A stretch of DNA of 64,000 bases from an uncultured Ruminococcus sp. (GCA_947177755.1 CAMWVV010000001.1:1592-65591), one strand, 5' to 3'; counted from the first letter of the stretch, positions 2,132 through 51,952 are shown. Translations and numbers: made by a program. Notes: generated from the letters alone by a model not told the origin.

Positions 2132-2166
2132 AAAAGGGACGGTTTTCAGCCGTCCCTGTTTTTTCT
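2132..2166. terminator. Bidirectional intrinsic terminator between convergent genes
   Basis: AGGGACGG/CCGTCCCT stem with an A run before and a T run after. Confidence 0.75.
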
Positions 2167-3654
2167 TTCATGTCTGATTATCAATTTTTTTATAAGACCT
2201 AAAATAAATCCTGCTATAAATTCAAAACCGCCTGTTACAAGCATGAACATACTGAAATTTGTCAGAAGTTTTGAACTGAGATAGAAAACTATATGACTTG
2301 TCTGACTATAGATGACAGGCGGAACAATTACAGCTGTAAGTCCGACTGCAAGGCAGACTATTCCGCTTGTCGTGAAAATACTTTTGTAGAATCCTGTTAG
2401 ATACCGTCCACGCTTGTCCACTATAACGGCAGTCCATATCATTAATACAAGAACCAGGGCAAGAAGAATCCCGAGAGTTATGAACGAGAAAATATAGCTC
2501 ATGATTCCGAAGTCAAAGCCTGTTTCATTTTTCCATTCGTCAACCGAAAGTGCCTTATCTGTATTACCGTTGCCAATGTTATAAATCATTGATGAAAAGT
2601 CATTACGATTGAGATTATTATAACCCGACCTGTTAAACATATATTCGGCTATTTCTTCACTTGTAAGTGTGGGTTTTTTTCCGCCGTTAAGTATGTAATC
2701 GGCGTATACAGAGGCGTTTTCTCCTATATAGTCGGTTACATTGAGATTAAGGACGAAATTTCTGAAATCATTTTCATTGCCGTGTCTGCTTGTGATGTTA
2801 TAGAAATCTGTCTGTTCATAAAGATATTCATTTACATCACGGTTACTGTCATATTCGGCTTCAAGTACTTTTTCCATATCAAGACTTTTTATGCCTTTTT
2901 CAATGACTGTTCCCGAAAATCCGAGTTTTATACAGAAAAGAATACTCAGGACAATAAGAAGAATAACAGCAAAAAATGTGACAATACCCGCACCGAAAAG
3001 TCTCAGTCCGCCTACTTTTACGGGTCTGTATTCCTGTAAAATCGGCGGTGGTTCGGGATAAGGCTGGTTCCCGACATATTCGGGAAAGTCTTCTGGCGGA
3101 ATATCATACGGAGGGGGGAAAGGCTCTCTGTAATCGTCGTCGTAATTATCATACGTCGGAATATATTGTGTATTCAGATTATCGTCATATGGTTCGGAAA
3201 AATCCTCCTGAATGTTTTCGTCATATTCTTCAGTATGTTTTTTCAGAACTATTTTCGGAAGATTTTCTTTGTGTTCCGCATTATTGTATTCGTCAATTTT
3301 TTTCTGAATCTGTTCAACGTTTTCGGTTACAGGCGCAGAAATTATTTCGCTTACAGTTTCAATGTCAGCAGGTTCTTCCTGTTTTATTTCCTGAGAAGAT
3401 TCGGTAACAGGGTTATTTTCCTCAGAAAATTCCGTCTGCTGATTATTTTCGGGCATATAAAGGGAATCTGATATATCAGAATCTTTGTCTGTTGAAATTT
3501 TTTTGTCGGTTTGCGTATCGGACTTTTTGACAAGAGATATTATGCCCGTATCTGAAGAAATACTGTTTATAGCAATACGTTGTATTTTTGCACCGCATTC
3601 AGAACAGAAAAGAGAATCGTCGTCAATTTGTCTGCCGCATGAATTACAAAACAT
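2146..3654 (-). CDS. Zinc-ribbon domain membrane protein of unknown function
   Basis: N-terminal MFCNSCG...FCSECG zinc ribbon, acidic/Pro-rich region, one central TM and three C-terminal TM segments. Confidence 0.75.
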   Translation of the reverse strand: MFCNSCGRQIDDDSLFCSECGAKIQRIAINSISSDTGIISLVKKSDTQTDKKISTDKDSDISDSLYMPENNQQTEFSEENNPVTESSQEIKQEEPADIETVSEIISAPVTENVEQIQKKIDEYNNAEHKENLPKIVLKKHTEEYDENIQEDFSEPYDDNLNTQYIPTYDNYDDDYREPFPPPYDIPPEDFPEYVGNQPYPEPPPILQEYRPVKVGGLRLFGAGIVTFFAVILLIVLSILFCIKLGFSGTVIEKGIKSLDMEKVLEAEYDSNRDVNEYLYEQTDFYNITSRHGNENDFRNFVLNLNVTDYIGENASVYADYILNGGKKPTLTSEEIAEYMFNRSGYNNLNRNDFSSMIYNIGNGNTDKALSVDEWKNETGFDFGIMSYIFSFITLGILLALVLVLMIWTAVIVDKRGRYLTGFYKSIFTTSGIVCLAVGLTAVIVPPVIYSQTSHIVFYLSSKLLTNFSMFMLVTGGFEFIAGFILGLIKKLIIRHERKNRDG

Positions 3655-3856
3655 AACAATTTTTCCTCCCGAATAGTTTTCAGATATTATTATTTATTAT
3701 ATAACATTAAGCTTTGTATGTCAATAATTTATTTAGGTTTATTTGCCGAAATCGTGTTATACGTGCTTTTCGGCATATATCAGAATAAAAAATGCACAAT
3801 TTCATATATCCGAAAAAAATTTTTTTATGGAATTTCGCTGAATATTCATGTTTTTA

Positions 3857-3885
3857 TTGATTTTGCGATAATAAAGTGATATTAT
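3857..3885 (+). promoter_or_regulatory. Sigma-A promoter with extended -10 for the ilvB leader
   Basis: TTGATT (3857-3862), 17 bp spacer, TG-n-TATTAT (3880-3885). Confidence 0.65.
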
Positions 3886-3918
3886 ATTAGTTAAAGAGTA
3901 TTCAGGGGGTTGAGCAAA

Positions 3919-4026
3919 ATGAACGCTGTTTTTATTTTTTCCGGTACAGTCATTATTATCGGCACAGTCCTTAGCGGCTTGTGTCTTAATTCATTCTGCC
4001 CGTTCACCGCTGAGTATCTCGCCTGA
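3919..4026 (+). CDS. Putative ilv leader peptide, 35 aa, MNAVFIFSGTVIIIGTVLSGLCLNSFCPFTAEYLA
   Basis: Manual translation; SD-like AGGGGGT about 9 nt upstream; 11 of 35 codons are Val/Ile/Leu including a V-I-I-I run; sits between the promoter and terminator ahead of ilvB. Confidence 0.65.
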   Translation: MNAVFIFSGTVIIIGTVLSGLCLNSFCPFTAEYLA

Positions 4027-4061
4027 TTTAATGTATTATTCAGAGCAATGAAGCTTAGTAG

Positions 4062-4095
4062 AGCCACCGGCAGAATGTCGGTGGCTTGTTTGTTA
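4062..4095 (+). terminator. Attenuator terminator upstream of ilvB
   Basis: AGCCACCG/CGGTGGCT stem followed by TGTTTGTT (imperfect U tract). Confidence 0.6.
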
Positions 4096-4139
4096 GTACA
4101 TAAAATCAGAAAAAATTTAATCATAAAGGACTTTTTAAT

Positions 4140-5816
4140 ATGAAAATATCAGGAGCAAAAATTGTTGTTGAAACCTTAATCGAACAGGGCTGCAATACTG
4201 TTTTCGGCTATCCGGGAGGACAGGTTATCAATCTGTTTGATGAACTGTACCTTTGCCGTGACCGTATAAAACACGTCCTCACAGCACATGAACAGGGAGC
4301 GTCTCATGCTGCCGACGGATATGCAAGAGCTACAGGAAAAGTAGGTGTAGTTATTGCCACTTCAGGTCCGGGTGCGACTAATCTCGTTACAGGAATAGCC
4401 ACGGCTTATCTTGACTCTGTTCCTATGGTTGCCATTACGGGAAACGTTCCGTGCAGTCTTATCGGACGTGACAGTTTTCAGGAAGTTGACATTGTAGGCG
4501 TGACCATGCCTGTAACAAAGCATAATTTTATTGTTAAAGACGTTTCTGAACTTGCCGACACTCTCCGAATGGCTTTCAAAATTGCAAAGTCGGGCAGACC
4601 CGGACCTGTTCTTGTTGATATTCCGAAAGACGTACAGATAGCAAAATGTGACTTCACACCCGAAAGTCAGCCTGTTGTGCCTTATCCTCTCAGTTTCGCA
4701 CCGGACGAAAAACTGAAAGAGGCAGCTGAACTTATCAACTCATGTGAAAGACCGTATATCTATTTTGGCGGTGGTATAATTGCAGGCAAGGCATCAGATG
4801 AACTTGTTGCACTCGCTGACAAGATTGATGCACCGCTGGGATGTTCTCTCATGGGACTTTCAGCAGTTCCGTCGGATAATCCGCATTTTCTCGGTATGCA
4901 GGGTATGCACGGTCACTATGCTTCTTCTGTTGCGGAAGACGAGGCTGATTTGGTCATTGCACTCGGTGCAAGATTCTCCGACAGAGCAACAGGTAATCTG
5001 AAACGTTTTGCAAAGAATTTCAGAATAGTTCATATAGATATTGACAGTGCGGAACTTGACAAGAATGTTTCTGCAAATCTTTCCGTACAGGGAGATATAA
5101 AGGACGCTCTCGAACGTCTTACGGCAATGGTTGAGGAAAAGAAACATGAAGCATGGTCTGCACGTATTGAGGAACTCAGGTCAGACGAAGCAAGGCGTAT
5201 AGAAAGTGCAAGGTCGGGCAGGGAACTTGACCCGTTCGCAATTGTTGACATTGTAAGTGAATATGAAGAAAATGCAAATATCGTTACTGATGTAGGACAG
5301 CACCAGATGTGGACTGCCCAAAGATACCCACTTAAAAAACCGAGAACGTTCCTTACAAGCGGTGGTCTTGGTACTATGGGCTTTGGTATGGGTGCGGCAA
5401 TCGGTGCGGCAGAGGCTACAGGCAGAAGAAGTATTCTCTTTACAGGTGACGGCAGTTTCGGCATGAATCTCAACGAACTCGCTACATCTGTTACACAGAA
5501 TACTCCCCTTACAGTAGTTATCATGAATAATGGTGTACTTGGCATGGTTCGTCAGTGGCAGACACTTTTCTTTGATAAGCACTATTCAAACACCACTCTT
5601 GACGGACGTAAGACCGATTTTGTAAAGCTTGCCGAAGCTTTCGGTGCAAAGGGTACAAGGGTTTTCACTAAGGACGAACTCAGAAACGCTGTTCAGGAAT
5701 CATTTGCATATAATGGTACTTTTATTATTGATTGTGCTGTTGACTGTGATGAATTTGTACTGCCTATGCTTCCCCCTGGTGGTTCAATCGACGATATTAT
5801 TACAGAAATAAAGTGA
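4140..5816 (+). CDS. ilvB: Acetolactate synthase large subunit
   Basis: FGYPGG, HEQGASHAADGYARATG, TSGPGATN, DVGQHQMW and TPP motif GDGSFGMN...NN. Confidence 0.97.
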   Translation: MKISGAKIVVETLIEQGCNTVFGYPGGQVINLFDELYLCRDRIKHVLTAHEQGASHAADGYARATGKVGVVIATSGPGATNLVTGIATAYLDSVPMVAITGNVPCSLIGRDSFQEVDIVGVTMPVTKHNFIVKDVSELADTLRMAFKIAKSGRPGPVLVDIPKDVQIAKCDFTPESQPVVPYPLSFAPDEKLKEAAELINSCERPYIYFGGGIIAGKASDELVALADKIDAPLGCSLMGLSAVPSDNPHFLGMQGMHGHYASSVAEDEADLVIALGARFSDRATGNLKRFAKNFRIVHIDIDSAELDKNVSANLSVQGDIKDALERLTAMVEEKKHEAWSARIEELRSDEARRIESARSGRELDPFAIVDIVSEYEENANIVTDVGQHQMWTAQRYPLKKPRTFLTSGGLGTMGFGMGAAIGAAEATGRRSILFTGDGSFGMNLNELATSVTQNTPLTVVIMNNGVLGMVRQWQTLFFDKHYSNTTLDGRKTDFVKLAEAFGAKGTRVFTKDELRNAVQESFAYNGTFIIDCAVDCDEFVLPMLPPGGSIDDIITEIK

Positions 5817-5826
5817 GGTGAGTGAA

Positions 5827-6330
5827 ATGGCTAAACAGTACATAATAGGTGTAATCGTTTCAAATCTTTCGGGTGTACTTTCAAGAGTTTCGGGAATGTT
5901 CACAAGAAGAAGCTTCAATATTGACAGTCTCACAGTAGGTGAAACCGAATCAAGTGAATTTTCACGTATTACCATTGCTTTTCACGGCGACGAGGAAGTA
6001 AAGGACCGTATAATCAGACAGCTTGACAAGCTTCATGATGTAAAGGAAGTTCAGGTGCTTGACAAGCATGAAACTGTTATCCGTGAACTTCTTCTTATAA
6101 AAATCAGAAACAAGCCTGAAACAAGACAGGATATTATGACAGCGGTTGAGATTTTCCGTTCAAAGATTGTTGACTATTATCCGTCGTCGCTTACAATAGA
6201 ACTTACAGGCGAAACGTCCAAGATAGACGCTTTTATTGAACTTGTAAAGCCTTATGGTATCATGGAAATGTGCCGTACTGGTATTGTCGCCGTTGAACGT
6301 GGCGAACGTTGTCTTAAGACTGTTAAATAA
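5827..6330 (+). CDS. ilvN: Acetolactate synthase regulatory subunit
   Basis: ACT domain GVLSRVSGMFTRRSFNIDSL; C-terminal EMCRTG; start moved to the ATG after GAGGTG. Confidence 0.95.
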   Translation: MAKQYIIGVIVSNLSGVLSRVSGMFTRRSFNIDSLTVGETESSEFSRITIAFHGDEEVKDRIIRQLDKLHDVKEVQVLDKHETVIRELLLIKIRNKPETRQDIMTAVEIFRSKIVDYYPSSLTIELTGETSKIDAFIELVKPYGIMEMCRTGIVAVERGERCLKTVK

Positions 6331-6391
6331 CAGTAAGATTATAATTGTCCGTCAGGACAGTATAATAAATTTATTAAAATTAAAGGAGTAA

Positions 6392-7432
<1,041 letters not shown>

Positions 7433-7566: not shown

Positions 7567-8196
7567 ATGTCTGATTCTTATATAAGAAAATTTATGCCAA
7601 ACAGAAAGCATATTATTTCTTTTGCTTTTGTTATTATATCTATATTTCTTTTTTTGAGCGGTTTTTACAGAGCATATCGTATCAGCGGACGACATACAAT
7701 GATTGAATTTACTTTTGACTACGAAATTCATAAAAATGACAGTATACTTTTATCAGCAAAACCGTTTGAGGCGAGATTAAAAGGAGCGGAACATGAAAAT
7801 GTTGTATGTTTTCAGACATTATTAACAGGTATTATTACTGAATATGAATGTTTTATAGTTCATATTGCGGGAAAATATCGTCCTATCATGGTTAAAAAAG
7901 GTACAGCCGAATATGATAAAGTTTTCAAGGGTGAAGAAGTATCAGGATATTTCACTGAAAAGAATTTTGATTATTTTCCGGATTTTGTATTAAATATGCA
8001 TAATTACTATGAACTGGAAAATAAAATCACAGACAAGGATTATTCAAAGCTTGGAATAGTAATTGTTGACCGTCAAAAAGAATTATTAAGTTTTATGTGG
8101 GGAATACCTTTTCTTGTTATCGGACTTATATTATTTAAAATTGCAGGTTCGTTGTTTTTCTATGTACCTGAAATGACAGATGTGGTGAAGGAGTAA
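7567..8196 (+). CDS. Hypothetical membrane protein (accessory, AT-rich)
   Basis: 209 aa ORF with GGAGG SD and N- and C-terminal hydrophobic segments; family not recognised. Confidence 0.7.
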   Translation: MSDSYIRKFMPNRKHIISFAFVIISIFLFLSGFYRAYRISGRHTMIEFTFDYEIHKNDSILLSAKPFEARLKGAEHENVVCFQTLLTGIITEYECFIVHIAGKYRPIMVKKGTAEYDKVFKGEEVSGYFTEKNFDYFPDFVLNMHNYYELENKITDKDYSKLGIVIVDRQKELLSFMWGIPFLVIGLILFKIAGSLFFYVPEMTDVVKE

Positions 8197-8251
8197 CATG
8201 GTCTGCTTCGTGCGTGACGAACGAGGGTGCAATTCCCTCCATCTGTCGCCA
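8175..8251 (+). ncRNA. tRNA-like element (non-canonical or degenerate)
   Basis: GACAGATG/CATCTGTC 8-bp stem plus GCCA 3' end; GAGGG-TGCAATT-CCCTC T-arm; GTG-AAGGAGTAA-CAT D-arm; no sound anticodon arm. Confidence 0.55.
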
Positions 8252-9976: not shown

Positions 9977-10468
9977 ATGAAAGACAAAGAACATTTGCCA
10001 GTATATGGCGTAGGACCGATTATTGTGCTTCCGCAGACAGTATTAACGGCAGTTGGAATCATTATGTCATTGTGCGGAGTTCTAGATTACGGAAAAATAG
10101 ATATTCTTAAAATACCGTTTCTTATTATCGGGATAATACTTATTGTTTTCGGTGCTTATATGTGGTATAGTGCAAATTATAAATCAAAGGTTTTTGACAA
10201 TATAGTTGAAAACAGACTTGTGACTTCAGGAATATATTCAGTTGTTCGGAATCCTATTTACAGTTCGGTTCTGCTGGAATGTACAGGAGCAGTTTTCATT
10301 GCTGGTAATGTGTTTTTGTTTATGATACCGTTTGTCTGCTGGATTTATATGACTGTATTTCTGAAACATACAGAGGAAAAATGGCTTAAAAACCTTTATG
10401 GTCAGGAATATATTGATTACTGCAAGAATGTAAACCGTTGTATACCGTGGTTTCCAAAAAAAAGATAA
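9977..10468 (+). CDS. Isoprenylcysteine carboxylmethyltransferase/PEMT family membrane protein
   Basis: LVTSGIYSVVRNPIY and EEKWLKNLYGQEY..YC..V.R.IP motifs. Confidence 0.85.
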   Translation: MKDKEHLPVYGVGPIIVLPQTVLTAVGIIMSLCGVLDYGKIDILKIPFLIIGIILIVFGAYMWYSANYKSKVFDNIVENRLVTSGIYSVVRNPIYSSVLLECTGAVFIAGNVFLFMIPFVCWIYMTVFLKHTEEKWLKNLYGQEYIDYCKNVNRCIPWFPKKR

Positions 10469-10504
10469 TATTATGTTTATACAAAAATGTTTTCTTACTG
10501 GTAA

Positions 10505-11206
10505 ATGGTATGTAAGGGAAATAAATATTATATGAACGGTTTTCAGCGTTCGGAAATGAGACAAAACATGAATAAATCTGTTGAAGAATATCGTGCGGAA
10601 ATAAAAAAAATCCTTGAGGAATTTTATGAACTTCAAAGCGTTCACAACAAAATCGGCATACAGATGCCTGAAGATTATGATATTCCTTCTGAAATGCTTA
10701 CGGGTGAAGTTGAAACGGATGCCAAATACAATATAAAACTTGTTACATGGAAAATGATACCGTCCGATATTACTGAAAAAGAAATTGCAGAACTTGAAAA
10801 AGAAATAAAAATGCGTTTGCCCGACCCTCTGAGAGCATATTATACATCATATTATCATTTATGGGAATTACATACAAGCATTTCCGGAAATTCACCACAA
10901 GCCAGAATGAGTGGTATTTACAGTTCTTACAATGAATTAATGATAAAGTTTGGATATCTTCCGTTCACATGGGATATTGAAGGAGCTTGGTTATATTGCA
11001 TGAAGTTTGATGAGAACAATAACGATTGCGGAATATATTGGATTGACCATGAATATATGTTTGATTTTGACAGTGAGACCGTTACAGCACAGGAAATTGA
11101 AAAGGTTATGGAATTTCAGGCAAAGGATTTTTGTGAATATCTTTATAATGAAACTATCGGTATGGCTAAATATTTCATTGAACATGGACTTTACAGTAAT
11201 AAATAG
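10505..11206 (+). CDS. SMI1/KNR4 (SUKH)-like protein, candidate immunity protein; true start may be 10568
   Basis: ITEKEIAELEKEIKMRLPDPLRAYY matches the SUKH N-terminal pattern; later YLPF and IYWIDHE motifs. Confidence 0.6.
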   Translation: MVCKGNKYYMNGFQRSEMRQNMNKSVEEYRAEIKKILEEFYELQSVHNKIGIQMPEDYDIPSEMLTGEVETDAKYNIKLVTWKMIPSDITEKEIAELEKEIKMRLPDPLRAYYTSYYHLWELHTSISGNSPQARMSGIYSSYNELMIKFGYLPFTWDIEGAWLYCMKFDENNNDCGIYWIDHEYMFDFDSETVTAQEIEKVMEFQAKDFCEYLYNETIGMAKYFIEHGLYSNK

Positions 11207-11224
11207 ACTTTTTGGTGAATTATT

Positions 11225-11605
11225 ATGAGAATTGAACACATTGCTATGTATGTCGTTGATTTGGAAAGGACAAAAGACTTTTTTGTCAATTATTTCAATG
11301 CTGTTCCGAATAATATGTATCATAACAAAAAAACAGATTTCAGGTCTTATTTTCTGTCATTTGACGAGGGAACAAGACTTGAAATAATGAACAAGCCACA
11401 AGTAAGCAACATAAAAGATACCAACAGAACAGGTTATGCACATATTGCGTTCAGTCTGGGAAGTGCTGAAAACGTTAATCGTCTGACAGCAGAATTAAAG
11501 GCGGACGGTTACACGGTCATAAGCGAACCACGAACAACAGGTGACGGATATTATGAAAGCTGTATAGTTGATTTGGAAGGAAATCAGATTGAACTTACTA
11601 TATAA
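11225..11605 (+). CDS. VOC/glyoxalase family protein
   Basis: MRIEHIAMYV.DLE, RLEIM, GYAHIAFSLG, GDGYYESC..D.EGN.IE. Confidence 0.9.
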   Translation: MRIEHIAMYVVDLERTKDFFVNYFNAVPNNMYHNKKTDFRSYFLSFDEGTRLEIMNKPQVSNIKDTNRTGYAHIAFSLGSAENVNRLTAELKADGYTVISEPRTTGDGYYESCIVDLEGNQIELTI

Positions 11606-11617
11606 CAAGGAGATGAT

Positions 11618-12151
11618 TTGATTATGGACAACATTAAAGATTATGTTAAAAGTCTGAATATTGATGATATTCCGTGGCACAGAATGGTTACCGCTTATGA
11701 AACGGCTGAAAAATATCCCGAATATCTCAGGATTCTTGACGAAATGAAAGACCTTGACGAAGTAAAAATGGCATGGAATAGTATTTCAGACTTTGAACAT
11801 CAAAGTACGCTGTTTACTCCTGCTCCATTTGCACTTGTTTTTCTTGTAAGAATTTACAGAAAGGCAAAGCAGACGGATACTCCCGAAGCTGAATGGCTCG
11901 TTAATCAGCTCAATAAATGTTTTAAATATTATCTTGAAGTGTGTACCGATGCTGACAGTATGAAACACGCTGAACCACTGGAAAATATGTCGGATATTCT
12001 GAATGACAAGTACCTGCTTCCCGAAGGTGTCAATCTCTATGATTATGATGATGAAGATGAATTTGAGGAACTTAATGAAAAACTTTTTCCAGAAGATTTA
12101 TTTTACAGTCTTTACTACTATACAAGAATTATTTTAAAGGAAGTGATTTGA
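11618..12151 (+). CDS. Acidic hypothetical protein, possibly immunity-type
   Basis: 177 aa acidic ORF with DIPWHRM.TAY and FEHQSTLF..APFAL.FL.R motifs that I associate with uncharacterised immunity-like proteins; tentative. Confidence 0.6.
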   Translation: MIMDNIKDYVKSLNIDDIPWHRMVTAYETAEKYPEYLRILDEMKDLDEVKMAWNSISDFEHQSTLFTPAPFALVFLVRIYRKAKQTDTPEAEWLVNQLNKCFKYYLEVCTDADSMKHAEPLENMSDILNDKYLLPEGVNLYDYDDEDEFEELNEKLFPEDLFYSLYYYTRIILKEVI

Positions 12152-12272: not shown

Positions 12273-13547
12273 ATGGGTATGACAATGACTCAGAAAATCC
12301 TTGCAGCTCATGCAGGACTTGAATCAGTTCAAGCAGGACAGCTTATTCTTGCTAATCTGGACTTGGTTCTCGGAAATGACATAACGTCTCCGGTAGCTAT
12401 AAAGGAGTTTGCAAAGCTCAATAAGGAAAATGTATTCGACAAGGACAAGGTAACAATGGTTATGGATCATTTCGCACCTAACAAGGACATAAAAGCCGCT
12501 GAACAGTGCAAGATGTGCCGTGACTTCTGCGGTGAAAAGGAAGTGACACACTTCTATGATGTTGGCAGAATGGGTATTGAACACGCACTTTTACCCGAAA
12601 AAGGACTTGTTACCTGTGGCAACGTAGTAATCGGTGCGGATTCACATACGTGTACTTATGGTGCATTGGGTGCTTTTTCAACGGGTGTCGGCTCAACTGA
12701 CATGGCGTGTGGTATGGCAATCGGTAAGGCATGGTTTAAAGTACCGTCTGCTATAAAGTTAAATCTTATCGGCAAGCTCCGCAAGTATGTTTCAGGCAAG
12801 GACGTTATTCTTCATATCATCGGAAAAATCGGTGTGGACGGTGCCTTGTATCGTTCAATGGAGTTCACAGGAGAGGGACTTTCTTCACTCTCTATGGCAG
12901 ACCGTCTGTGTATTGCCAATATGGCTATTGAAGCAGGTGCAAAGAACGGTATTTTTGAAGTTGACGACATAACACTTGAATACATAAAGGCTCACGGTGC
13001 AAAAGAACCGACGGTTTACAAGGCAGACGAAGATGCTGTTTACGACGAAGTTATTGATATAAATCTTTCTGAAATCGAACCTACTGTATCATTCCCGCAT
13101 CTTCCCGAAAATGCCAAGACTTTTGACCAGTTCGGTGATATTGAAATAAATCAGGTTGTAATAGGTTCATGCACAAACGGCAGACTTGAGGACTTACAGG
13201 AAGCCGCCGAAATCATGAAAGGAAAGCAGTGTGCGAAAAACGTCCGTGTAATAATCATTCCTGCAACACAGCAGATTTATCTTGACGCTATGGAACAGGG
13301 TCTTATGAAGATATTCATTGAAAGCGGTGCGGTTGTTTCAACTCCCACTTGCGGTCCATGTCTGGGCGGACATATGGGTATACTTGCAGAGGGTGAAAGA
13401 GCCGTTGCGACAACAAACAGGAACTTTGTCGGAAGAATGGGTCATGTCAAGTCGGAAGTTTACCTTGCAAGTCCTGCGGTAGCGGCAGCAAGTGCGATTA
13501 CAGGAAAAATTTCAAGTCCTTGGGAGGTTATGAACTATGAAGTATGA
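12273..13547 (+). CDS. leuC: 3-isopropylmalate dehydratase large subunit
   Basis: [30 protein letters not shown]-type aconitase motifs; adjacent to leuD and leuB. Confidence 0.93.
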
Positions 13548-14031: not shown

Positions 14032-14091
14032 TTGTAATTTGTTCGGAGTATGGAGTTATTTAACTCCTGCTCCGTACTGACTGGAGTTTTT

Positions 14092-14523
14092 ATGAGTAAA
14101 CTAATTAAAAGCCTTAAAAAAATTGCTCCCGATAAGGAAATAATGGAAGGTACTTTCACAAGCAAATTCTTTAAGAATGAATACAGCTATAAACTGTCTG
14201 TATACATGGAAAATTCCTCATTGATTGAATATGCTGAAAAGTGTATTGAGCATTTCAATTCGCTTTCTGATGATATGATTGACGAAATATGTCACGGACT
14301 TATTGAAAGCTGTCATTTATCGGACGTGGATTTTGAACTTCCTGAACTTGAAAATATCAGGGATATTCTTGATTACTGTTGGTTTACTTCACTTGTTACT
14401 ATTGAAGACGATGGAATATATTATTTAGTCGAGGGTGAAGGCGACTGGGGAGAAGAAGTCGGATTTGTAATACATAATGACAATGTAAATTATGTTGGTT
14501 ATGATTATTTTAATGTTGTATAA
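14092..14523 (+). CDS. Acidic hypothetical protein inserted between leuD and leuB (ORF track start 14050; SD favours 14092)
   Basis: GGAG SD before the ATG at 14092; very acidic; no recognisable enzyme motif. Confidence 0.65.
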   Translation: MSKLIKSLKKIAPDKEIMEGTFTSKFFKNEYSYKLSVYMENSSLIEYAEKCIEHFNSLSDDMIDEICHGLIESCHLSDVDFELPELENIRDILDYCWFTSLVTIEDDGIYYLVEGEGDWGEEVGFVIHNDNVNYVGYDYFNVV

Positions 14524-15617: not shown

Positions 15618-16817
15618 ATGAATGATAAAATAACTCAACTTTGCAGAAAGTGTAATACAACCACTGTTTTTTGCAATCTCGGGGCAGACAGGGTTATTGT
15701 CAATCTCATGTGCCTTCTTAGTTCAGACCCTGATGAAATATGTGATTTTATCAGGGACTATTCAGACGTAGCGTCGGCACTTTATAAGACAAATATAAAT
15801 CTGAGTGAATATATTCTTAAAGCTGTACTTGAGGACGATAATTTTTATATACGTGGAATAGCACAGGGGCAAGTTTTCGACAGTTACATTGTTGAAGCTG
15901 TTGAAAACGAACTGAAAATATTTCAGGAACTTTCAAGATTTACTCCCGAAGATGTAACTGCTGATATTGATTATGACGGTTTTCTGCCGAAGTGGAGAAC
16001 TTCCGAGATAGATTTTGTTGAAGAGTATAATAAACGTCTTGAAAATATCGGAAAATACGGCTATGGAAAATATTCACAGAACAGAATGTTTATTCTCAGA
16101 AACGGCGAGACAGTTCCCGTGAAATATCCCGATACACAGCGACTTGACCATTTATACGGCTATAAAAGGGAACGACAGGCAGTTATTGACAATACCCTTG
16201 CACTTCTTGACGGCAAGCCTGCCCAGAACGTTCTTTTATACGGCGACGCAGGCACGGGAAAATCTTCGTCTGTAAAGGCTATTGTAAATGAGTATGCTGA
16301 CAGAGGGTTACGCCTTATTGAGATAACAAAGGAGCAGTTAAGGGACATTCCACAGATTATCGACGATATAAGTCATAATCCGCTTAAGTTCATAATATTC
16401 ATAGACGATTTGACTTTTACGTCTGGTGAAGACTGTTTCGGTTCTCTCAAGGCTATGCTGGAGGGTTCTGCATCGGCACGGTCGGACAATATAGTTATCT
16501 ATGCCACAAGCAACCGCCGTCATCTTGTCAAGGAAACGTTTTCGGAGCGTGACGGCGACGACGTTCATCGCAACGATACAATGCAGGAGCTTATTTCACT
16601 TTCTGCACGTTTCGGTCTGCGTGTTAATTTCGGAAAGCCCGACAAAAAAGAGTTTGTCCGCATAGCAGGAGAACTTGCAAGACAGAAAGGTCTTGAATTT
16701 GAAGAAAAGGACTTTGAACTGAAAGCAGAACGTTTTGCGATGTCGTCGGGTAACGGACGTTCGCCCAGAACGGCAAAGCAGTTTGTGAATCAGCTTATCA
16801 ACGAAAAAAGTGTTTAA
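15618..16817 (+). CDS. DUF815-family AAA+ ATPase
   Basis: Walker A GDAGTGKSS, Walker B IFIDDL, IYATSNRRHLVKE, SLSARFGL, RSPRTAKQF. Confidence 0.85.
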   Translation: MNDKITQLCRKCNTTTVFCNLGADRVIVNLMCLLSSDPDEICDFIRDYSDVASALYKTNINLSEYILKAVLEDDNFYIRGIAQGQVFDSYIVEAVENELKIFQELSRFTPEDVTADIDYDGFLPKWRTSEIDFVEEYNKRLENIGKYGYGKYSQNRMFILRNGETVPVKYPDTQRLDHLYGYKRERQAVIDNTLALLDGKPAQNVLLYGDAGTGKSSSVKAIVNEYADRGLRLIEITKEQLRDIPQIIDDISHNPLKFIIFIDDLTFTSGEDCFGSLKAMLEGSASARSDNIVIYATSNRRHLVKETFSERDGDDVHRNDTMQELISLSARFGLRVNFGKPDKKEFVRIAGELARQKGLEFEEKDFELKAERFAMSSGNGRSPRTAKQFVNQLINEKSV

Positions 16818-20444: not shown

Positions 20445-20448
20445 ATAT

Positions 20449-20479
20449 AAAAAGGACAGCACCTGAAGCTGTCCTTTTT
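20449..20479. terminator. Bidirectional terminator
   Basis: AAAAAGGACAGC/GCTGTCCTTTTT perfect inverted repeat between convergent genes. Confidence 0.8.
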
Positions 20480-20498
20480 GTTTGATATTCAGATTAAA

Positions 20499-26400: not shown

Positions 26401-27597
26401 ATGAACATTAACAAGAGCTTTTTCGATGCACTTCAATCTCTCGGAGAGGAAAACAGTGTTGAAACTGAACTTCTCATCGAAAAAGTAAAGTCGGCAATGC
26501 TTAAGGCTGCGAGAAAGGCTTATCCGCACAGTGAAGAACGTATAAAGGTTGAAATAGACCCTCTTACAAAGAAGTTTGCAATGTATATCGAACAGGAAAT
26601 TATTGATGATTATCCTATTGACGAAAACGAAGTCAATATTGACGTTGCAAGAACCATTGACCCTTATGCTGTTGTCGGCGGTAAGATTCTGAAAGAGATT
26701 GATATTTCAAAACTCGGCAGAATGGCGGCACTTTCAGCCAAGCAGTCAATAAAGGGCGACCTCAGGGAAATTAACCGTGAACAGATGCTTAATCGTTTTG
26801 AATCAAAGGAACATGAATGCATTACGGCTAAAGTTTCTCAGATTGACCCTGGCAGAGGCACTGTTACTGTTGAATATGAGGGAACGGAACTCTATCTTTT
26901 CAGAAATGAACAGATTCCGGGGGAAGTTCTGAAAGAAGGTTCGTCTGTAAAGGTTTATGTAACCAGTATTATAGGAAAAACCAAAAAGCCGATTGTCAAG
27001 ATTTCACGTACTCACAAGGACCTTGTAAAAAGACTTTTTGAACTGGAAGTCCCTGAAATCTATGACGGAACGGTTGAAGTCAAATCAATTTCAAGGGAGG
27101 CAGGTTCAAGAACAAAGATAGCCGTATGTTCAAGAGATGCAAACGTTGATGCGGTAGGTGCTTGCATCGGTGTTGACCATTCAAGAATAAAAGCAGTTGT
27201 TGAAGAACTCAACAACGAAAAGATAGATATTATTCAATGGAGTGAAGTACCTGAAAAATTCATTTCAAAGGCACTTGCACCTGCATCTGTTCTTAAAACT
27301 GTCATAACTTCCGAGGAAGAAAAGACCTGCACGGTTATAGTTCCGAACAATCAGCTTTCACTTGCTATCGGCAACAAGGGACAGAATGCAAAGCTTGCCG
27401 CCAAGCTTACAGGTTACAAAATCGACATCAAACCTCAGTTTGATAACGAAACAAATAAAGAAGCTCCCGAATTAAGTCCCGATTTTAAAGTACCCGAAAA
27501 GCAGACTGACGTTGAGGAAGAAAAAGCTGTTGCAGAAGAAGTCTCGGCTGAAAATGCGGAAGTTTCCGCAGAAGCGGTTACTTCGGAAGAGGAATAA
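26401..27597 (+). CDS. nusA: Transcription factor NusA
   Basis: S1 and KH domains; SREAGSRTKIAV, VGACIG, LSLAIGNKGQNAKLAAKLTGYKIDIK. Confidence 0.96.
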   Translation: MNINKSFFDALQSLGEENSVETELLIEKVKSAMLKAARKAYPHSEERIKVEIDPLTKKFAMYIEQEIIDDYPIDENEVNIDVARTIDPYAVVGGKILKEIDISKLGRMAALSAKQSIKGDLREINREQMLNRFESKEHECITAKVSQIDPGRGTVTVEYEGTELYLFRNEQIPGEVLKEGSSVKVYVTSIIGKTKKPIVKISRTHKDLVKRLFELEVPEIYDGTVEVKSISREAGSRTKIAVCSRDANVDAVGACIGVDHSRIKAVVEELNNEKIDIIQWSEVPEKFISKALAPASVLKTVITSEEEKTCTVIVPNNQLSLAIGNKGQNAKLAAKLTGYKIDIKPQFDNETNKEAPELSPDFKVPEKQTDVEEEKAVAEEVSAENAEVSAEAVTSEEE

Positions 27598-51259: not shown

Positions 51260-51952
51260 TTAATCATTTTCAATAACGGAAATTCCTTTATCTTCCAGTA
51301 ATTTTCTGTCCTCTTCTGAAATAGTTCCTTTATCAATTTCCAATACCTTTAAAGAATCCATTTCAAGAATACCGGCTATATCTTCTATTTTATCTTCAAA
51401 TATTCTTAGTTCTTCAACATAATCAAATGATGCAAATATTGAACTGTCTTTAGTAATATTATTGTCAGATATTGCTGAAACAATTATAGTTATACTTTTA
51501 AGTGACTTACATTCTGCCAATTTTTCAAAATTTTTGACGATACTCTCAATAAACCTTATTGAAGAAACCGTATCACTGTTAAAGCCCTTAAAATCAACAT
51601 TAGTACGATAAAAATCCAACTCTTTCAGATTATCAAACTTGCTGATTTTTTCACAATCGGCACTGCTTATATCAGAACTCATTATCATTAAATCGTAAAG
51701 ATTATGAAAGTTTCTGAATTTGGAAATTGTATTTTCACTTGCTCTTGTCAACCATATTTGCTCAACTTCAGTACATTTGTTTATTTCTCTTACATTGGTA
51801 ATGTCTAAAGAAGAGTCTATTTTTTTAATATCATTTTTATAGATTTTTTTATCAATTACAGCAAAATGTGTATCAAAATAGACAGCTCCGAAAATCAGGC
51901 TGAATATAACTACAGCTATAACAGAGATGATTATAAATTTTTTTGATTTCAT
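51260..51952 (-). CDS. AT-rich membrane-anchored protein with degenerate leucine-rich repeats
   Basis: N-terminal TM; repeated L..L.I/L.F patterns (NLYDLMI, NLKELDF, SLKSITI, SLKVLEI). Confidence 0.7.
   Translation of the reverse strand: MKSKKFIIISVIAVVIFSLIFGAVYFDTHFAVIDKKIYKNDIKKIDSSLDITNVREINKCTEVEQIWLTRASENTISKFRNFHNLYDLMIMSSDISSADCEKISKFDNLKELDFYRTNVDFKGFNSDTVSSIRFIESIVKNFEKLAECKSLKSITIIVSAISDNNITKDSSIFASFDYVEELRIFEDKIEDIAGILEMDSLKVLEIDKGTISEEDRKLLEDKGISVIEND

What the first reader, a model, noticed from the sequence alone, without database searches (positions are those of the whole stretch)
3857..4095. Unannotated leader-peptide attenuator controlling the ilvBNC operon
Seen: a promoter (3857-3885), then an SD and a 35-codon ORF (3919-4026) with GTC ATT ATT ATC GGC ACA GTC CTT (V-I-I-I-G-T-V-L), then a terminator hairpin (4062-4086) ahead of ilvB. 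CATTCTGCC (3992-4000, inside the ORF) is exactly complementary to GGCAGAATG (4069-4077, top of the terminator stem and loop), which gives a mutually exclusive antiterminator. No T-box motif is present. Established: clostridial and bacillar BCAA operons commonly use T-boxes, while ribosome-stalling ilv leaders are known in enterobacteria, Lactococcus, Staphylococcus and Listeria. Inference: Val/Ile-sensing classical attenuation, which I do not know to be described in Ruminococcaceae.
Basis: partly seen in the sequence, partly recalled or inferred. Interest (0 to 1): 0.7.

Follow-up and report, generated by a model that had tools for sequence, protein, structure and literature searches.

The report
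Isoleucine/valine leader-peptide attenuator before ilvBNC
A tiny, translated mini-gene rich in isoleucine and valine codons, followed by a switchable transcription stop signal, sits in front of the branched-chain amino-acid genes of this Ruminococcus. It is a textbook kind of ribosome-sensing switch, found here as an uncatalogued family shared by about two thirds of the species of the genus.

Summary
Window 3857-4096 holds an extended -10 promoter, a Shine-Dalgarno (SD) site, a 35-codon ORF (3919-4026), an intrinsic terminator (4061-4087 plus U-tract) and an exact 9-nt complement (3992-4000 vs 4069-4077), all directly upstream of ilvB-ilvN-ilvC.

- **Conservation.** A covariance model built from 70 congeneric leaders finds one copy per genome in 108 of 162 species of the genus. 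Every copy I fetched with ilvB in reach lies just upstream of ilvB. Named carriers include R. flavefaciens FD-1 and ATCC 19208.
- **Restriction to the genus.** There was no convincing hit in 400 other genomes of the order.
- **Evidence of translation.** ATG and SD are conserved. The distance from ATG to the Ile/Val run varies only by multiples of 3. Ile/Val codons vary synonymously, with 6-8 Ile/Val in an 11-codon core and Leu scarce.
- **RNA structure.** The terminator, an in-ORF hairpin and the antiterminator pairing all show compensatory changes. Where the frame shifts, the antiterminator strand stays conserved as RNA, not as peptide.
- **Known families.** No Rfam, Pfam or NCBIfam family matches. 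Relatives outside the genus use T-boxes or unrelated BCAA-rich leaders.

This is a new family of a well-known mechanism. Response to amino-acid supply is untested, and so is the way a non-stalled ribosome blocks the antiterminator.

The parts
3857..3885 (+). Promoter: -35 TTGATT, 17-nt spacer, extended -10 TGaTATTAT. The predicted transcription start is near 3890-3893.
   Evidence: Consensus scan. TTATTGATTT...AAAGTGATATAATA is conserved in the 17-sequence alignment of relatives.
3896..3909 (+). 5'-UTR strand of the closing helix H0 (GAGUAUUCAG, GG), overlapping the SD site AGGGGG 3904-3909.
   Evidence: MFE fold. The 5'UTR/ORF-end duplex has a median of -15.9 kcal/mol and z<-2 in 46 of 70 relatives. 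The SD columns are 90% paired with the ORF end.
3919..4026 (+). Leader ORF, 35 codons plus stop: MNAVFIFSGTVIIIGTVLSGLCLNSFCPFTAEYLA.
   Evidence: An SD-preceded ATG ORF of 30-40 codons is present in the 70 aligned relatives. The ATG-to-core distance is 28, 31, 34 or 40 nt, so it varies only in multiples of 3.
3949..3972 (+). Regulatory codons: V11 I12 I13 I14 (3949-3960) and V17 L18 (3967-3972).
   Evidence: Per-codon table: codon 11 is V/I in 70/70, codon 12 is I in 68/70, codon 13 is I in 66/70 (ATT/ATC/ATA), codon 17 is V in 70/70, codon 18 is I/V in 57/70, codon 20 is V/I in 49/70.
3961..3985 (+). In-ORF hairpin H2 (GGCACAG...UUGUGUC). Its 5' arm lies in the second Ile/Val cluster. It is a candidate pause / '1:2' hairpin.
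   Evidence: MFE fold. In the family it is 91.8% paired, and 7 of 11 pairs carry compensatory changes.
3992..4000 (+). Antiterminator 5' strand 'A' (CAUUCUGCC), inside the ORF (codons 25-28).
   Evidence: Exact complement of 4069-4077. Conserved as nucleotides even where the reading frame differs, in L003 and L014. Covariation.
4007..4026 (+). 3' strand of H0 (CC, CUGAGUA, CUC), followed by the last sense codon and the stop codon (4021-4026).
4044..4056 (+). Conserved spacer motif AGCAAUGAAGCUU ('B'). In relatives its 5' half pairs with the ORF end as the base of a post-ORF hairpin.
   Evidence: Alignments. UUGCU:AGCAA is 80.8% paired and 4 pairs carry double changes. An alternative partner was rejected.
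4061..4096 (+). Intrinsic terminator: stem-loop 4061-4087 (core GCCACCGGCA-GAA-UGUCGGUGGC) with the U-rich tail UUGUUUGUU. 'C' = GGCAGAAUG 4069-4077 pairs with A.
   Evidence: Scan, fold. Terminator helices are 93% paired and 7 of 9 pairs carry compensatory changes. A terminator was found 150-186 nt after the ATG in all relatives.
4140..7432 (+). Regulated genes ilvB (4140-5816), ilvN (5818-6330) and ilvC (6398-7432). The co-oriented cluster continues through ilvD, leuC, leuD, leuB and a threonine-dehydratase-like gene to a strong terminator at 20447-20481.
   Evidence: Pfam and terminator scan. That these genes form one operon is inferred.

Best explanation
This is a ribosome-mediated (leader-peptide) transcription attenuator that senses the supply of charged Ile- and Val-tRNA and controls read-through into ilvBNC, and probably into the whole ilv-leu cluster.

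Proposed sequence of events:
1. Transcription starts near 3890. A ribosome loads at the SD/ATG (3904-3921) and translates the 35-codon leader.
2. If Ile/Val-tRNA is scarce, the ribosome stalls in the Ile/Val clusters (codons 10-14 and 17-20 in the family; 3949-3972 here). It melts the in-ORF hairpin H2 but leaves strand A (3992-4000) exposed.
3. When RNA polymerase has made the 5' arm and loop of the terminator, A pairs with C (4069-4077). The remaining 5-6 bp of the terminator stem cannot close over that 9-bp helix, so polymerase reads through into ilvB.
4. If Ile/Val-tRNA is plentiful, the ribosome runs over A to the stop codon. A is then occluded or refolded while C emerges, the terminator forms, and transcription ends at about 4090-4096.
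5. A conserved helix between the SD region and the end of the ORF (H0) probably shuts the leader SD after the first round of translation.

Shown here: the anatomy, its conservation, signs that the ORF is translated, and covariation for the terminator, H2 and A:C.

Inferred: stalling, the timing, the pause role of H2, the role of H0, and the response to amino acids.
For: Anatomy in the window.

Position and conservation:
- Leader DNA is conserved directly upstream of ilvB in congeners.
- Covariance model R1 finds 108 of 162 genus genomes (66 of 93 high-quality), with one match in 107 and two partial matches on one contig in the other.
- It finds only the window's own genome convincingly among 401 genomes of the order.

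Evidence of translation:
- ATG is invariant, and the SD columns are invariant or >=90% conserved.
- The ATG-to-core distance varies only by multiples of 3.
- Ile/Val identity is kept through synonymous changes, for example codon 13 ATT 43 / ATC 15 / ATA 8.
- There are 6-8 Ile/Val in the best 11-codon window in 62 of 70 sequences. Overall composition is I 14%, V 11.6%, L 4.1%.

Terminator and H2 covary: 86.6% paired, 20 pairs with double changes, 0 of 500 shuffles reach this.

Antiterminator A:C:
- 93.1% of cells are paired, against 32-75% for slid controls. Four pairs and 15 cells carry compensatory changes; no shuffle reached the observed 15 compensated cells or the pairing rate, and 1 of 500 reached 4 such pairs.
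- Examples are CUGUC:GACAG in the ATCC 19208 clade, A-U to G-C in L116 and L167, and CUGUGCCC:GGGCGCAG in L149 and L151.
- The duplex has a median of -13.8 kcal/mol and z<-2 in 65 of 70 sequences.
- A stays conserved when the frame shifts, in L003 and L014.

Folding with ribosome masks: A:C probability is 0.78 with a stalled plus a queued ribosome, against 0.47 with a ribosome at the stop codon (47 sequences higher, 1 lower).

Other points:
- No promoter-like site lies between the terminator and ilvB.
- RNA-run contigs span leader plus ilvB in R. flavefaciens FD-1-type sequence, so read-through transcripts probably exist (weak evidence).
Against: - No expression data bear on regulation. The RNA runs are held only as assembled contigs and show nothing about premature termination.
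- The antiterminator is only 9 bp, and at equilibrium the terminator dominates in every ribosome state (T about 0.66-0.78).
- In the window's own leader the masks make no difference (A:C 0.94-0.99 in all states). A ends 23 nt before the stop codon, so it lies outside a terminating ribosome. In the family that distance is 9-32 nt. The step 'a non-stalled ribosome prevents A:C' is therefore not explained by simple occlusion.
- The window's U-tract is interrupted (UUGUUUGUU).
- The window's peptide has only 5 Ile/Val in its core, plus 3 Leu nearby.
- Transcription and translation are reported to be poorly coupled in some Bacillota (my own knowledge). That would make ribosome-timed attenuation harder.
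Confidence: 0.85

Rival explanations
1. An RNA-only or factor-dependent attenuator. The same terminator/antiterminator switch is set by a protein, a small molecule or an uncharged tRNA that binds the conserved RNA. The ORF is incidental or not translated.
For: Several stretches are conserved at the nucleotide level beyond what the peptide needs: GTCATTAT, GTC of codon 17, TTCATTCTGCC and AGCAATGAAGC. The C-terminal half of the 'peptide' is really RNA-constrained. Simple ribosome occlusion of A is geometrically marginal.
Against: The ATG is invariant, and the SD columns are invariant or >=90% conserved. Indels upstream of the core come only in multiples of 3. Synonymous variation keeps Ile/Val identity. 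The Ile/Val over Leu bias matches the pathway. There is no T-box, riboswitch or other Rfam match.
Confidence: 0.06
2. The small ORF encodes a functional hydrophobic micro-protein with its own terminator. ilvB is expressed and regulated independently of it.
For: The peptide is hydrophobic and is conserved across many species. Gene callers predict it as a 'hypothetical protein' in several assemblies.
Against: It always lies directly upstream of ilvB, with one match in 107 of the 108 genomes that hold it. No promoter-like site follows the terminator. An ORF-internal segment covaries with the terminator top. The C-terminal third changes frame or sequence in L003, L014, L149 and L151 while the RNA pairing is kept. 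Leu, the commonest residue of membrane helices, is scarce. No Pfam or NCBIfam family matches.
Confidence: 0.04
3. Leader translation mainly controls translation or mRNA stability, through SD sequestration by helix H0, rather than transcription termination.
For: H0 pairs the SD region with the end of the ORF in most members (median -15.9 kcal/mol; 90% paired at the SD columns).
Against: H0 sequesters the leader's own SD, not the ilvB SD (4126-4131), which stays unpaired in the fold. A canonical hairpin plus U-tract is conserved with covariation. The conserved pairing of A with the terminator top has no role in this model.
Confidence: 0.05

Closest known systems
Enterobacterial ilvBN (ivbL) and ilvGMEDA (ilvL) leader-peptide attenuators
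   Same: A short SD-preceded ORF rich in codons for the pathway's amino acids, followed by alternative antiterminator and terminator pairings, upstream of acetolactate synthase genes. Read-through is set by ribosome stalling (established knowledge; PMC1183508).
   Different: There is no sequence homology: no NCBIfam, Pfam or Rfam hit. Here the antiterminator 5' strand lies inside the ORF, 9-32 nt upstream of the stop, and is only 9 nt long. It pairs with the top and loop of the terminator rather than forming a large 2:3 hairpin. The codon bias is Ile/Val with little Leu.
Corynebacterium ilvBNC leader (ilvB-II motif uORF), the ilvB-OMG motif and the Leptospira ilvB motif
   Same: Conserved uORFs rich in BCAA codons with a terminator stem upstream of ilvB, found by comparative genomics. 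The Corynebacterium case has been tested by reporters (PMC10272879, PMC11857589).
   Different: They occur in different phyla and have different sequences. cmscan of Rfam 15 gave no match at E<=10 in the window's leader or at E<=1 in eight relatives.
Leader-peptide attenuators of Bacillota: S. aureus ilv leader, Listeria Rli60, Lactococcus leu/ilv leader, and predicted His leaders in the B. cereus group, Peptostreptococcaceae and Erysipelotrichales
   Same: Ribosome-mediated attenuation in Gram-positive bacteria, where T-boxes are the usual solution (PMC5794164, PMC5864092, PMC2965389, PMC9413887).
   Different: The lineages, operons or amino acids differ. None is in Oscillospirales/Ruminococcus, and none is detectably similar in sequence.
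T-box leaders upstream of ilvB in other Oscillospirales
   Same: They occupy the same genomic position and the same output module (an intrinsic terminator before ilvB). They sense tRNA charging.
   Different: A T-box binds uncharged tRNA directly. RF00230 hits L031 and L045 directly upstream of ilvB, but hits nothing in the window. In L022 a T-box precedes the upstream gene, and the leader peptide still precedes ilvB.

Membership tests
Ribosome-mediated (leader-peptide) transcription attenuators | A short ORF with its own SD and start codon in the 5' leader of an amino-acid biosynthesis operon | tested here: met
   AGGGGG-9 nt-ATG, 35 codons. Conserved in 70 aligned relatives, with the frame preserved.
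Ribosome-mediated (leader-peptide) transcription attenuators | Clustered codons for the amino acid(s) made by the operon | tested here: met
   6-8 Ile/Val in an 11-codon core in 62 of 70 sequences. Identity is kept through synonymous codons. The window has VIII..V plus 3 Leu.
Ribosome-mediated (leader-peptide) transcription attenuators | A Rho-independent terminator between the leader ORF and the first structural gene | tested here: met
   12-bp hairpin plus U-rich tail at 4061-4096. Present in all relatives examined, with covariation.
Ribosome-mediated (leader-peptide) transcription attenuators | An alternative pairing that excludes the terminator (antiterminator) | tested here: met
   A:C is 9 bp, 93.1% paired, with compensatory changes at 4 pairs. 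Only 2-3 nt would remain to span a 9-bp helix if the lower terminator stem also formed (my geometric inference).
Ribosome-mediated (leader-peptide) transcription attenuators | Geometry such that a stalled ribosome frees the antiterminator strand and a ribosome that finishes blocks it | tested here: inconclusive
   A lies >=20 nt past the last regulatory codon, so it is free when the ribosome stalls. It ends 9-32 nt before the stop, so it is only marginally covered by a terminating ribosome. Mask folding gives 0.78 against 0.47 on average, but no difference for the window itself.
Ribosome-mediated (leader-peptide) transcription attenuators | Read-through rises when the cognate aminoacyl-tRNA is limiting and depends on leader translation | not testable with these tools
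   Public RNA runs that hold relatives are kept only as contigs.
T-box leader (RF00230) | Match to the T-box covariance model (specifier loop, T-box sequence) | tested here: not met
   No hit at gathering score in the window, or at E<=10 in 3600-4250. The same search finds T-boxes in L031, L045, L028, L033 and L022.
Rfam amino-acid leader and ilvB-associated motifs (ilvB-OMG, Leu/Thr/His/Trp leaders, Leu/Phe leader, ppGpp riboswitch) | Match to any of those covariance models | tested here: not met
   cmscan of all 4227 Rfam 15 families gave nothing relevant at E<=10 in the window's leader, or at E<=1 in eight relatives.
Named leader peptides in NCBIfam / Pfam (e.g. IvbL, IlvL) | HMM match of the peptide | tested here: not met
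   No family at E<=10 in NCBIfam or at E<=1 in Pfam. Public records call the ORF at most 'hypothetical protein'.

The most novel reading that the evidence does not exclude
The Ruminococcus leader may be a structurally distinct solution to ribosome-timed attenuation in a phylum where RNA polymerase tends to outrun the ribosome.

- The antiterminator strand sits inside the ORF, about 75-90 nt upstream of its partner. It would then be the still-translating, lagging ribosome that masks it, not a ribosome parked at the stop codon.
- A conserved SD:anti-SD helix (H0) competes with a post-ORF hairpin for the end of the ORF. That competition would make the decision depend on whether the initiation site is occupied by a queued second ribosome.
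- The same design (two Ile/Val clusters, a GUCAUUAU core, pairing to the terminator top) may be shared by weakly matching ilvB leaders in other lineages: L177, L038 Oligosphaera, L041 Oribacterium, L086. If so, there would be a wider and partly horizontally spread family.
Probability: 0.2. Interest if true: 0.6.

Novelty: new member of a known kind. Interest (0 to 1): 0.4.

Why it matters
It adds a well-supported, uncatalogued cis-regulatory family to a genus of major rumen and gut fibre degraders. I estimate about 110 species from one genus carry it, including cultured R. flavefaciens strains.

It also explains a recurrent 'hypothetical protein' call of 30-40 codons as a leader peptide.

It documents a switch of sensor at one locus. 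Neighbouring Oscillospirales carry a T-box before ilvB, and some Ruminococcus carry a T-box before the upstream gene. ilvB itself has a leader peptide.

The 70-sequence alignment and structure could seed an Rfam entry. The element is a natural Ile/Val-responsive part for engineering branched-chain amino-acid or isobutanol pathways in cellulolytic Clostridia.

It does not change what is known about how attenuation works unless the unusual geometry proves to matter.

Tried and rejected
- **Start-codon region pairing with A, or with the Ile codons (AUAAUGA:UCAUUAU).** Both are compatible (88% and 96% paired), but neither exceeds the shuffles. They are not claimed.
- **Spacer motif B (AAUGAAGC) pairing with the 5' part of A as an anti-antiterminator.** Rejected: 70% paired, below the shuffles, and the ATCC 19208 clade changes both sides to a non-pair.
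- **H0 as a strict anti-antiterminator.** Not claimed. An H-type pseudoknot of H0 with A:C looks sterically possible by my own estimate of loop lengths.
- **Antisense ORF 3891-4124 (77 aa).** Not conserved: only about 10 of 70 relatives keep the minus strand open over the segment.
- **RNA evidence.** Three run searches and two read-laying runs gave only assembled contigs with flat depth. They are uninformative on premature termination.
- **Homology to other clostridial ilvB leaders.** The R1 model gives only weak (16-29 bit) full-length matches to L086, L038, L041, L043, L046 and L177. Distant homology or convergence is not settled.
- **Weak order-wide R1 hits.** Of the eleven fetched as loci, only L177 lies next to ilvB, and two were not fetched. 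The others are probably terminators.
- **CodY-box-like sequence near the promoter.** I looked by eye, saw no good match and did not pursue it.

Full report
**1. What is in the sequence**

- Promoter-like site: TTGATT (3857-3862), 17 nt, TATTAT (3880-3885), with TG two bases upstream of the -10.
- SD site: AGGGGG (3904-3909).
- ORF: an ATG at 3919 opens a 35-codon frame ending at TGA 4024-4026 (MNAVFIFSGTVIIIGTVLSGLCLNSFCPFTAEYLA). The run GTC ATT ATT ATC GGC ACA GTC CTT is at 3949-3972.
- Terminator: the scan gives 4061-4087 (12 pairs, loop GAA) followed by a U-rich, G-interrupted tail.
- Complement: CATTCTGCC (3992-4000) is the exact complement of GGCAGAATG (4069-4077). That segment comprises the top four pairs of the terminator's 5' arm, its loop and two bases of its 3' arm.
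- Fold: the 211-nt leader folds better than shuffles (z = -2.95).
- Genes: ilvB, ilvN and ilvC follow at 4140-7432. The co-oriented cluster continues through ilvD, leuC, leuD, leuB and a threonine-dehydratase-like gene, interspersed with accessory genes. The next strong terminator is at 20447-20481.
- Divergent neighbour: the upstream gene (2146-3654) is on the other strand and has its own perfect consensus promoter.
- Rfam: nothing in the whole window at gathering scores, and only noise at E<=10 in 3600-4250.

**2. Conservation and taxonomic range**

The leader DNA is found directly upstream of ilvB in many genomes of the same genus. A pattern scan of named genomes identifies the genus as Ruminococcus. 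Named carriers are R. flavefaciens FD-1, ATCC 19208, ND2009, YAD2003 and SAb67, plus many rumen and gut MAGs.

I built a 70-sequence alignment (A2) and from it a covariance model (R1).
- In the genus, R1 hits 108 of 162 species genomes (66 of 93 high-quality ones). 107 of them have one match; one genome has two partial matches on one contig.
- Among 401 genomes sampled across the order, only the window's own genome gives a real hit.
- Of the eleven weak order-wide hits fetched as loci, only one (L177) lies next to ilvB.
- Other Oscillospirales carry a T-box at the same position (L031, L045).
- In one Ruminococcus MAG a T-box precedes the upstream gene while the leader still precedes ilvB (L022).

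**3. Is the ORF translated?**

- ATG is invariant, and the SD columns are invariant or >=90% conserved.
- The distance from ATG to the conserved core is 31 nt in 56 of 70 sequences and otherwise 28, 34 or 40 nt. Indels therefore come only in multiples of three.
- The per-codon table shows amino-acid-level constraint:
  - codon 13 is Ile in 66 of 70, encoded by ATT (43), ATC (15) and ATA (8);
  - codon 20 is Val through GTC, GTT, GTG and GTA;
  - codon 11 is Val or Ile in 70 of 70;
  - codon 17 is Val in 70 of 70.
- The best 11-codon window holds 6-8 Ile/Val in 62 of 70 sequences.
- Overall composition is Ile 14%, Val 11.6% and Leu only 4.1%. That fits a sensor of the ilvBNC products and does not fit a generic membrane helix.
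- The consensus peptide is M-R-x-V-Y-I-S-S-G-I-V-I-I-I-G-A-V-I-N-V-S-D-C-x-L-x-S-F-C-P-N-G-A-L-A.

The C-terminal third behaves differently. It is constrained as RNA, not as peptide.
- In L003 and L014 the frame over TTCATTCTGCC is shifted (FHSA instead of SFCP), yet the nucleotides are kept.
- In L149 and L151 both this stretch and the terminator are replaced by a different complementary pair.

The antisense ORF is not conserved. The peptide matches no Pfam or NCBIfam family, and public records call it at most 'hypothetical protein'.

**4. RNA structures and their support**

*Helices counted on A2*
- Terminator: 93% of cells paired, 7 of 9 pairs with compensatory changes.
- H2, a hairpin inside the ORF whose 5' arm lies in the second Ile/Val cluster: 91.8% paired, 7 of 11 pairs compensated.
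- SD columns: 90% paired with the last codons of the ORF.
- For the whole structure, no shuffle of 500 reached the observed pairing, compensated cells or covariation score. The slid controls give 33-54% pairing.

*Antiterminator A:C*
- 93.1% paired, against 32-75% for slid controls.
- Four pairs and 15 cells carry compensatory changes. No shuffle reached the observed 15 compensated cells or the pairing rate, and 1 of 500 reached 4 such pairs.
- Concrete cases:
  - CUGCC:GGCAG becomes CUGUC:GACAG in the clade of ATCC 19208;
  - an A-U pair becomes G-C in L116 and L167;
  - L149 and L151 have CUGUGCCC:GGGCGCAG.
- The duplex energy has a median of -13.8 kcal/mol and z<-2 against shuffles in 65 of 70 sequences.

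*Helix H0*
- It pairs the 5'UTR/SD region with the ORF end. The median is -15.9 kcal/mol, with z<-2 in 46 of 70.
- In the window it is GAG-UAUUCAG (3896-3905) with CUGAGUA-U-CUC (4010-4020).

*Spacer motif B (AGCAAUGAAGCUU, 4044-4056)*
- It is partly explained. Its 5' half pairs with UUGCU at the ORF end (80.8% paired, 4 pairs with double changes).
- That forms the base of a post-ORF hairpin that competes with H0.

*Pairings without support*
- The start-codon region with A or with the Ile codons is possible but shows no covariation.
- B with A is rejected.

**5. Mechanism**

The best-supported reading is classical attenuation.
- A ribosome stalled at the Ile/Val codons melts H2 and leaves A free. 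A lies at least 20 nt beyond the last regulatory codon.
- A captures the emerging terminator top. Once that 9-bp helix exists, only 2-3 nt would be left to bridge it, so the lower terminator stem cannot close (my geometric inference).
- A ribosome that is not delayed passes over A and reaches the stop. The terminator then forms.

Equilibrium folding with ribosome masks agrees in direction.
- On transcripts truncated after C, the A:C probability averages 0.78 with a stalled plus a queued initiating ribosome, 0.64 with a stalled ribosome alone, 0.60 without a ribosome, and 0.47 with a ribosome at the stop. Comparing the stalled-plus-queued state with the stop state, 47 sequences are higher and 1 is lower.
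- On full-length leaders the terminator wins in all states, so the switch must be kinetic, as in known attenuators.

The weak step is how a non-stalled ribosome prevents A:C.
- A ends 17 nt before the stop in 39 of 70 sequences, with a range of 9-32 nt and 23 nt in the window. That places it at or beyond the trailing edge of a terminating ribosome.
- The window's own leader shows no mask effect.
- I see two possible answers, neither tested here:
  1. The ribosome still translating over A is what matters. H2 could act as a pause hairpin that synchronises polymerase and ribosome.
  2. Refolding behind the ribosome disfavours A:C, for example when H0 closes and removes the post-ORF hairpin.

**6. 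Comparison with what is known**

- The mechanism is that of the enterobacterial ivbL and ilvL leaders and of the Corynebacterium ilvBNC uORF. Conserved BCAA-rich uORFs before ilvB are also reported for the ilvB-OMG and Leptospira ilvB motifs (PMC10272879, PMC11857589).
- In Bacillota, leader-peptide attenuators are documented or predicted for S. aureus and Listeria ilv genes and for his operons, including Peptostreptococcaceae (PMC5794164, PMC5864092, PMC2965389, PMC9413887).
- I found no description for Ruminococcus or Oscillospirales, and no Rfam family matches.
- Unrelated BCAA-rich small ORFs followed by terminators also precede ilvB in Christensenella-, Oribacterium- and Oligosphaera-type genomes and in other loci (L035-L046, L086, L095).
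- Earlier notes of this scan report similar leaders in other gut Clostridia. They are leads only, but they agree with what I saw.
- R1 gives weak full-length matches to a few of these. L177 encodes MRSLNPFNYSVNVIIINGVIIIDSAFLRYAVIGARRV. A wider family or convergence both remain possible.

**7. Verdict**

It is a new, genus-wide family of a well-known kind of switch.

My confidence that it is a ribosome-mediated Ile/Val-responsive transcription attenuator is about 0.85. What is missing is any measurement of termination or of the response to amino acids. Interest is moderate. It is useful for annotation, as an Rfam seed and as an engineering part, but it would not surprise a specialist unless the unusual placement of the antiterminator strand inside the ORF proves to matter for the mechanism.

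Noticed in passing
window 7567-8196, 9977-12151, 14050-14523, 15618-16817: Accessory genes sit between the core ilv/leu genes on the same strand. They are a 209-aa protein with no family, a PEMT-like methyltransferase, a SUKH/SMI1 protein, a glyoxalase-fold protein, a 177-aa protein with no family, a DUF6985 protein and a DUF815 AAA ATPase. No strong terminator occurs before 20447-20481.
   Followed up: partly
window 8175-8251: Another first-stage note calls this a tRNA-like element. ARAGORN finds no tRNA anywhere in the window, and Rfam has no hit at gathering score.
   Followed up: partly
window 3696-3724 (- strand): A perfect sigma-70 consensus promoter (TTGACA-17-TATAAT) faces the divergent gene 2146-3654, which encodes a zinc-ribbon protein.
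   Followed up: no
L022:156-406: In a Ruminococcus MAG a T-box (105 bits) lies about 1.8 kb upstream of the leader (2242-2445), which in turn precedes ilvB (2501). The two sensors therefore occur in series on one locus.
   Followed up: partly
L166 (genome G088): The leader is disrupted. The ORF ends after 20 codons (MRSIIASTGIVIMTAPPADR), and roughly 90 extra bases separate the Ile codons from H2, A and the terminator, which are all retained.
   Followed up: no
L177:1475-1775 (- strand); L038:2324-2460: Leaders outside the genus resemble the Ruminococcus design. L177 encodes MRSLNPFNYSVNVIIINGVIIIDSAFLRYAVIGARRV followed by a strong terminator. The Oligosphaera ethanolica leader (L038) shares TATCGTCATTATT and has a UUUUGCCG:CGGCGGAA pairing to its terminator top.
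   Followed up: partly
window 12564-12572 (-), 26716-26724 (-), 51510-51518 (+): The 9-mer CATTCTGCC occurs five times in the window against 0.56 expected. Three copies lie outside the leader.
   Followed up: no
window 3949-3956 and 3967-3969: GTCATTAT and the GTC of codon 17 are nucleotide-invariant or nearly so in 70 leaders, while neighbouring Ile/Val codons vary synonymously. This points to an RNA-level or codon-specific constraint that remains unexplained.
   Followed up: partly
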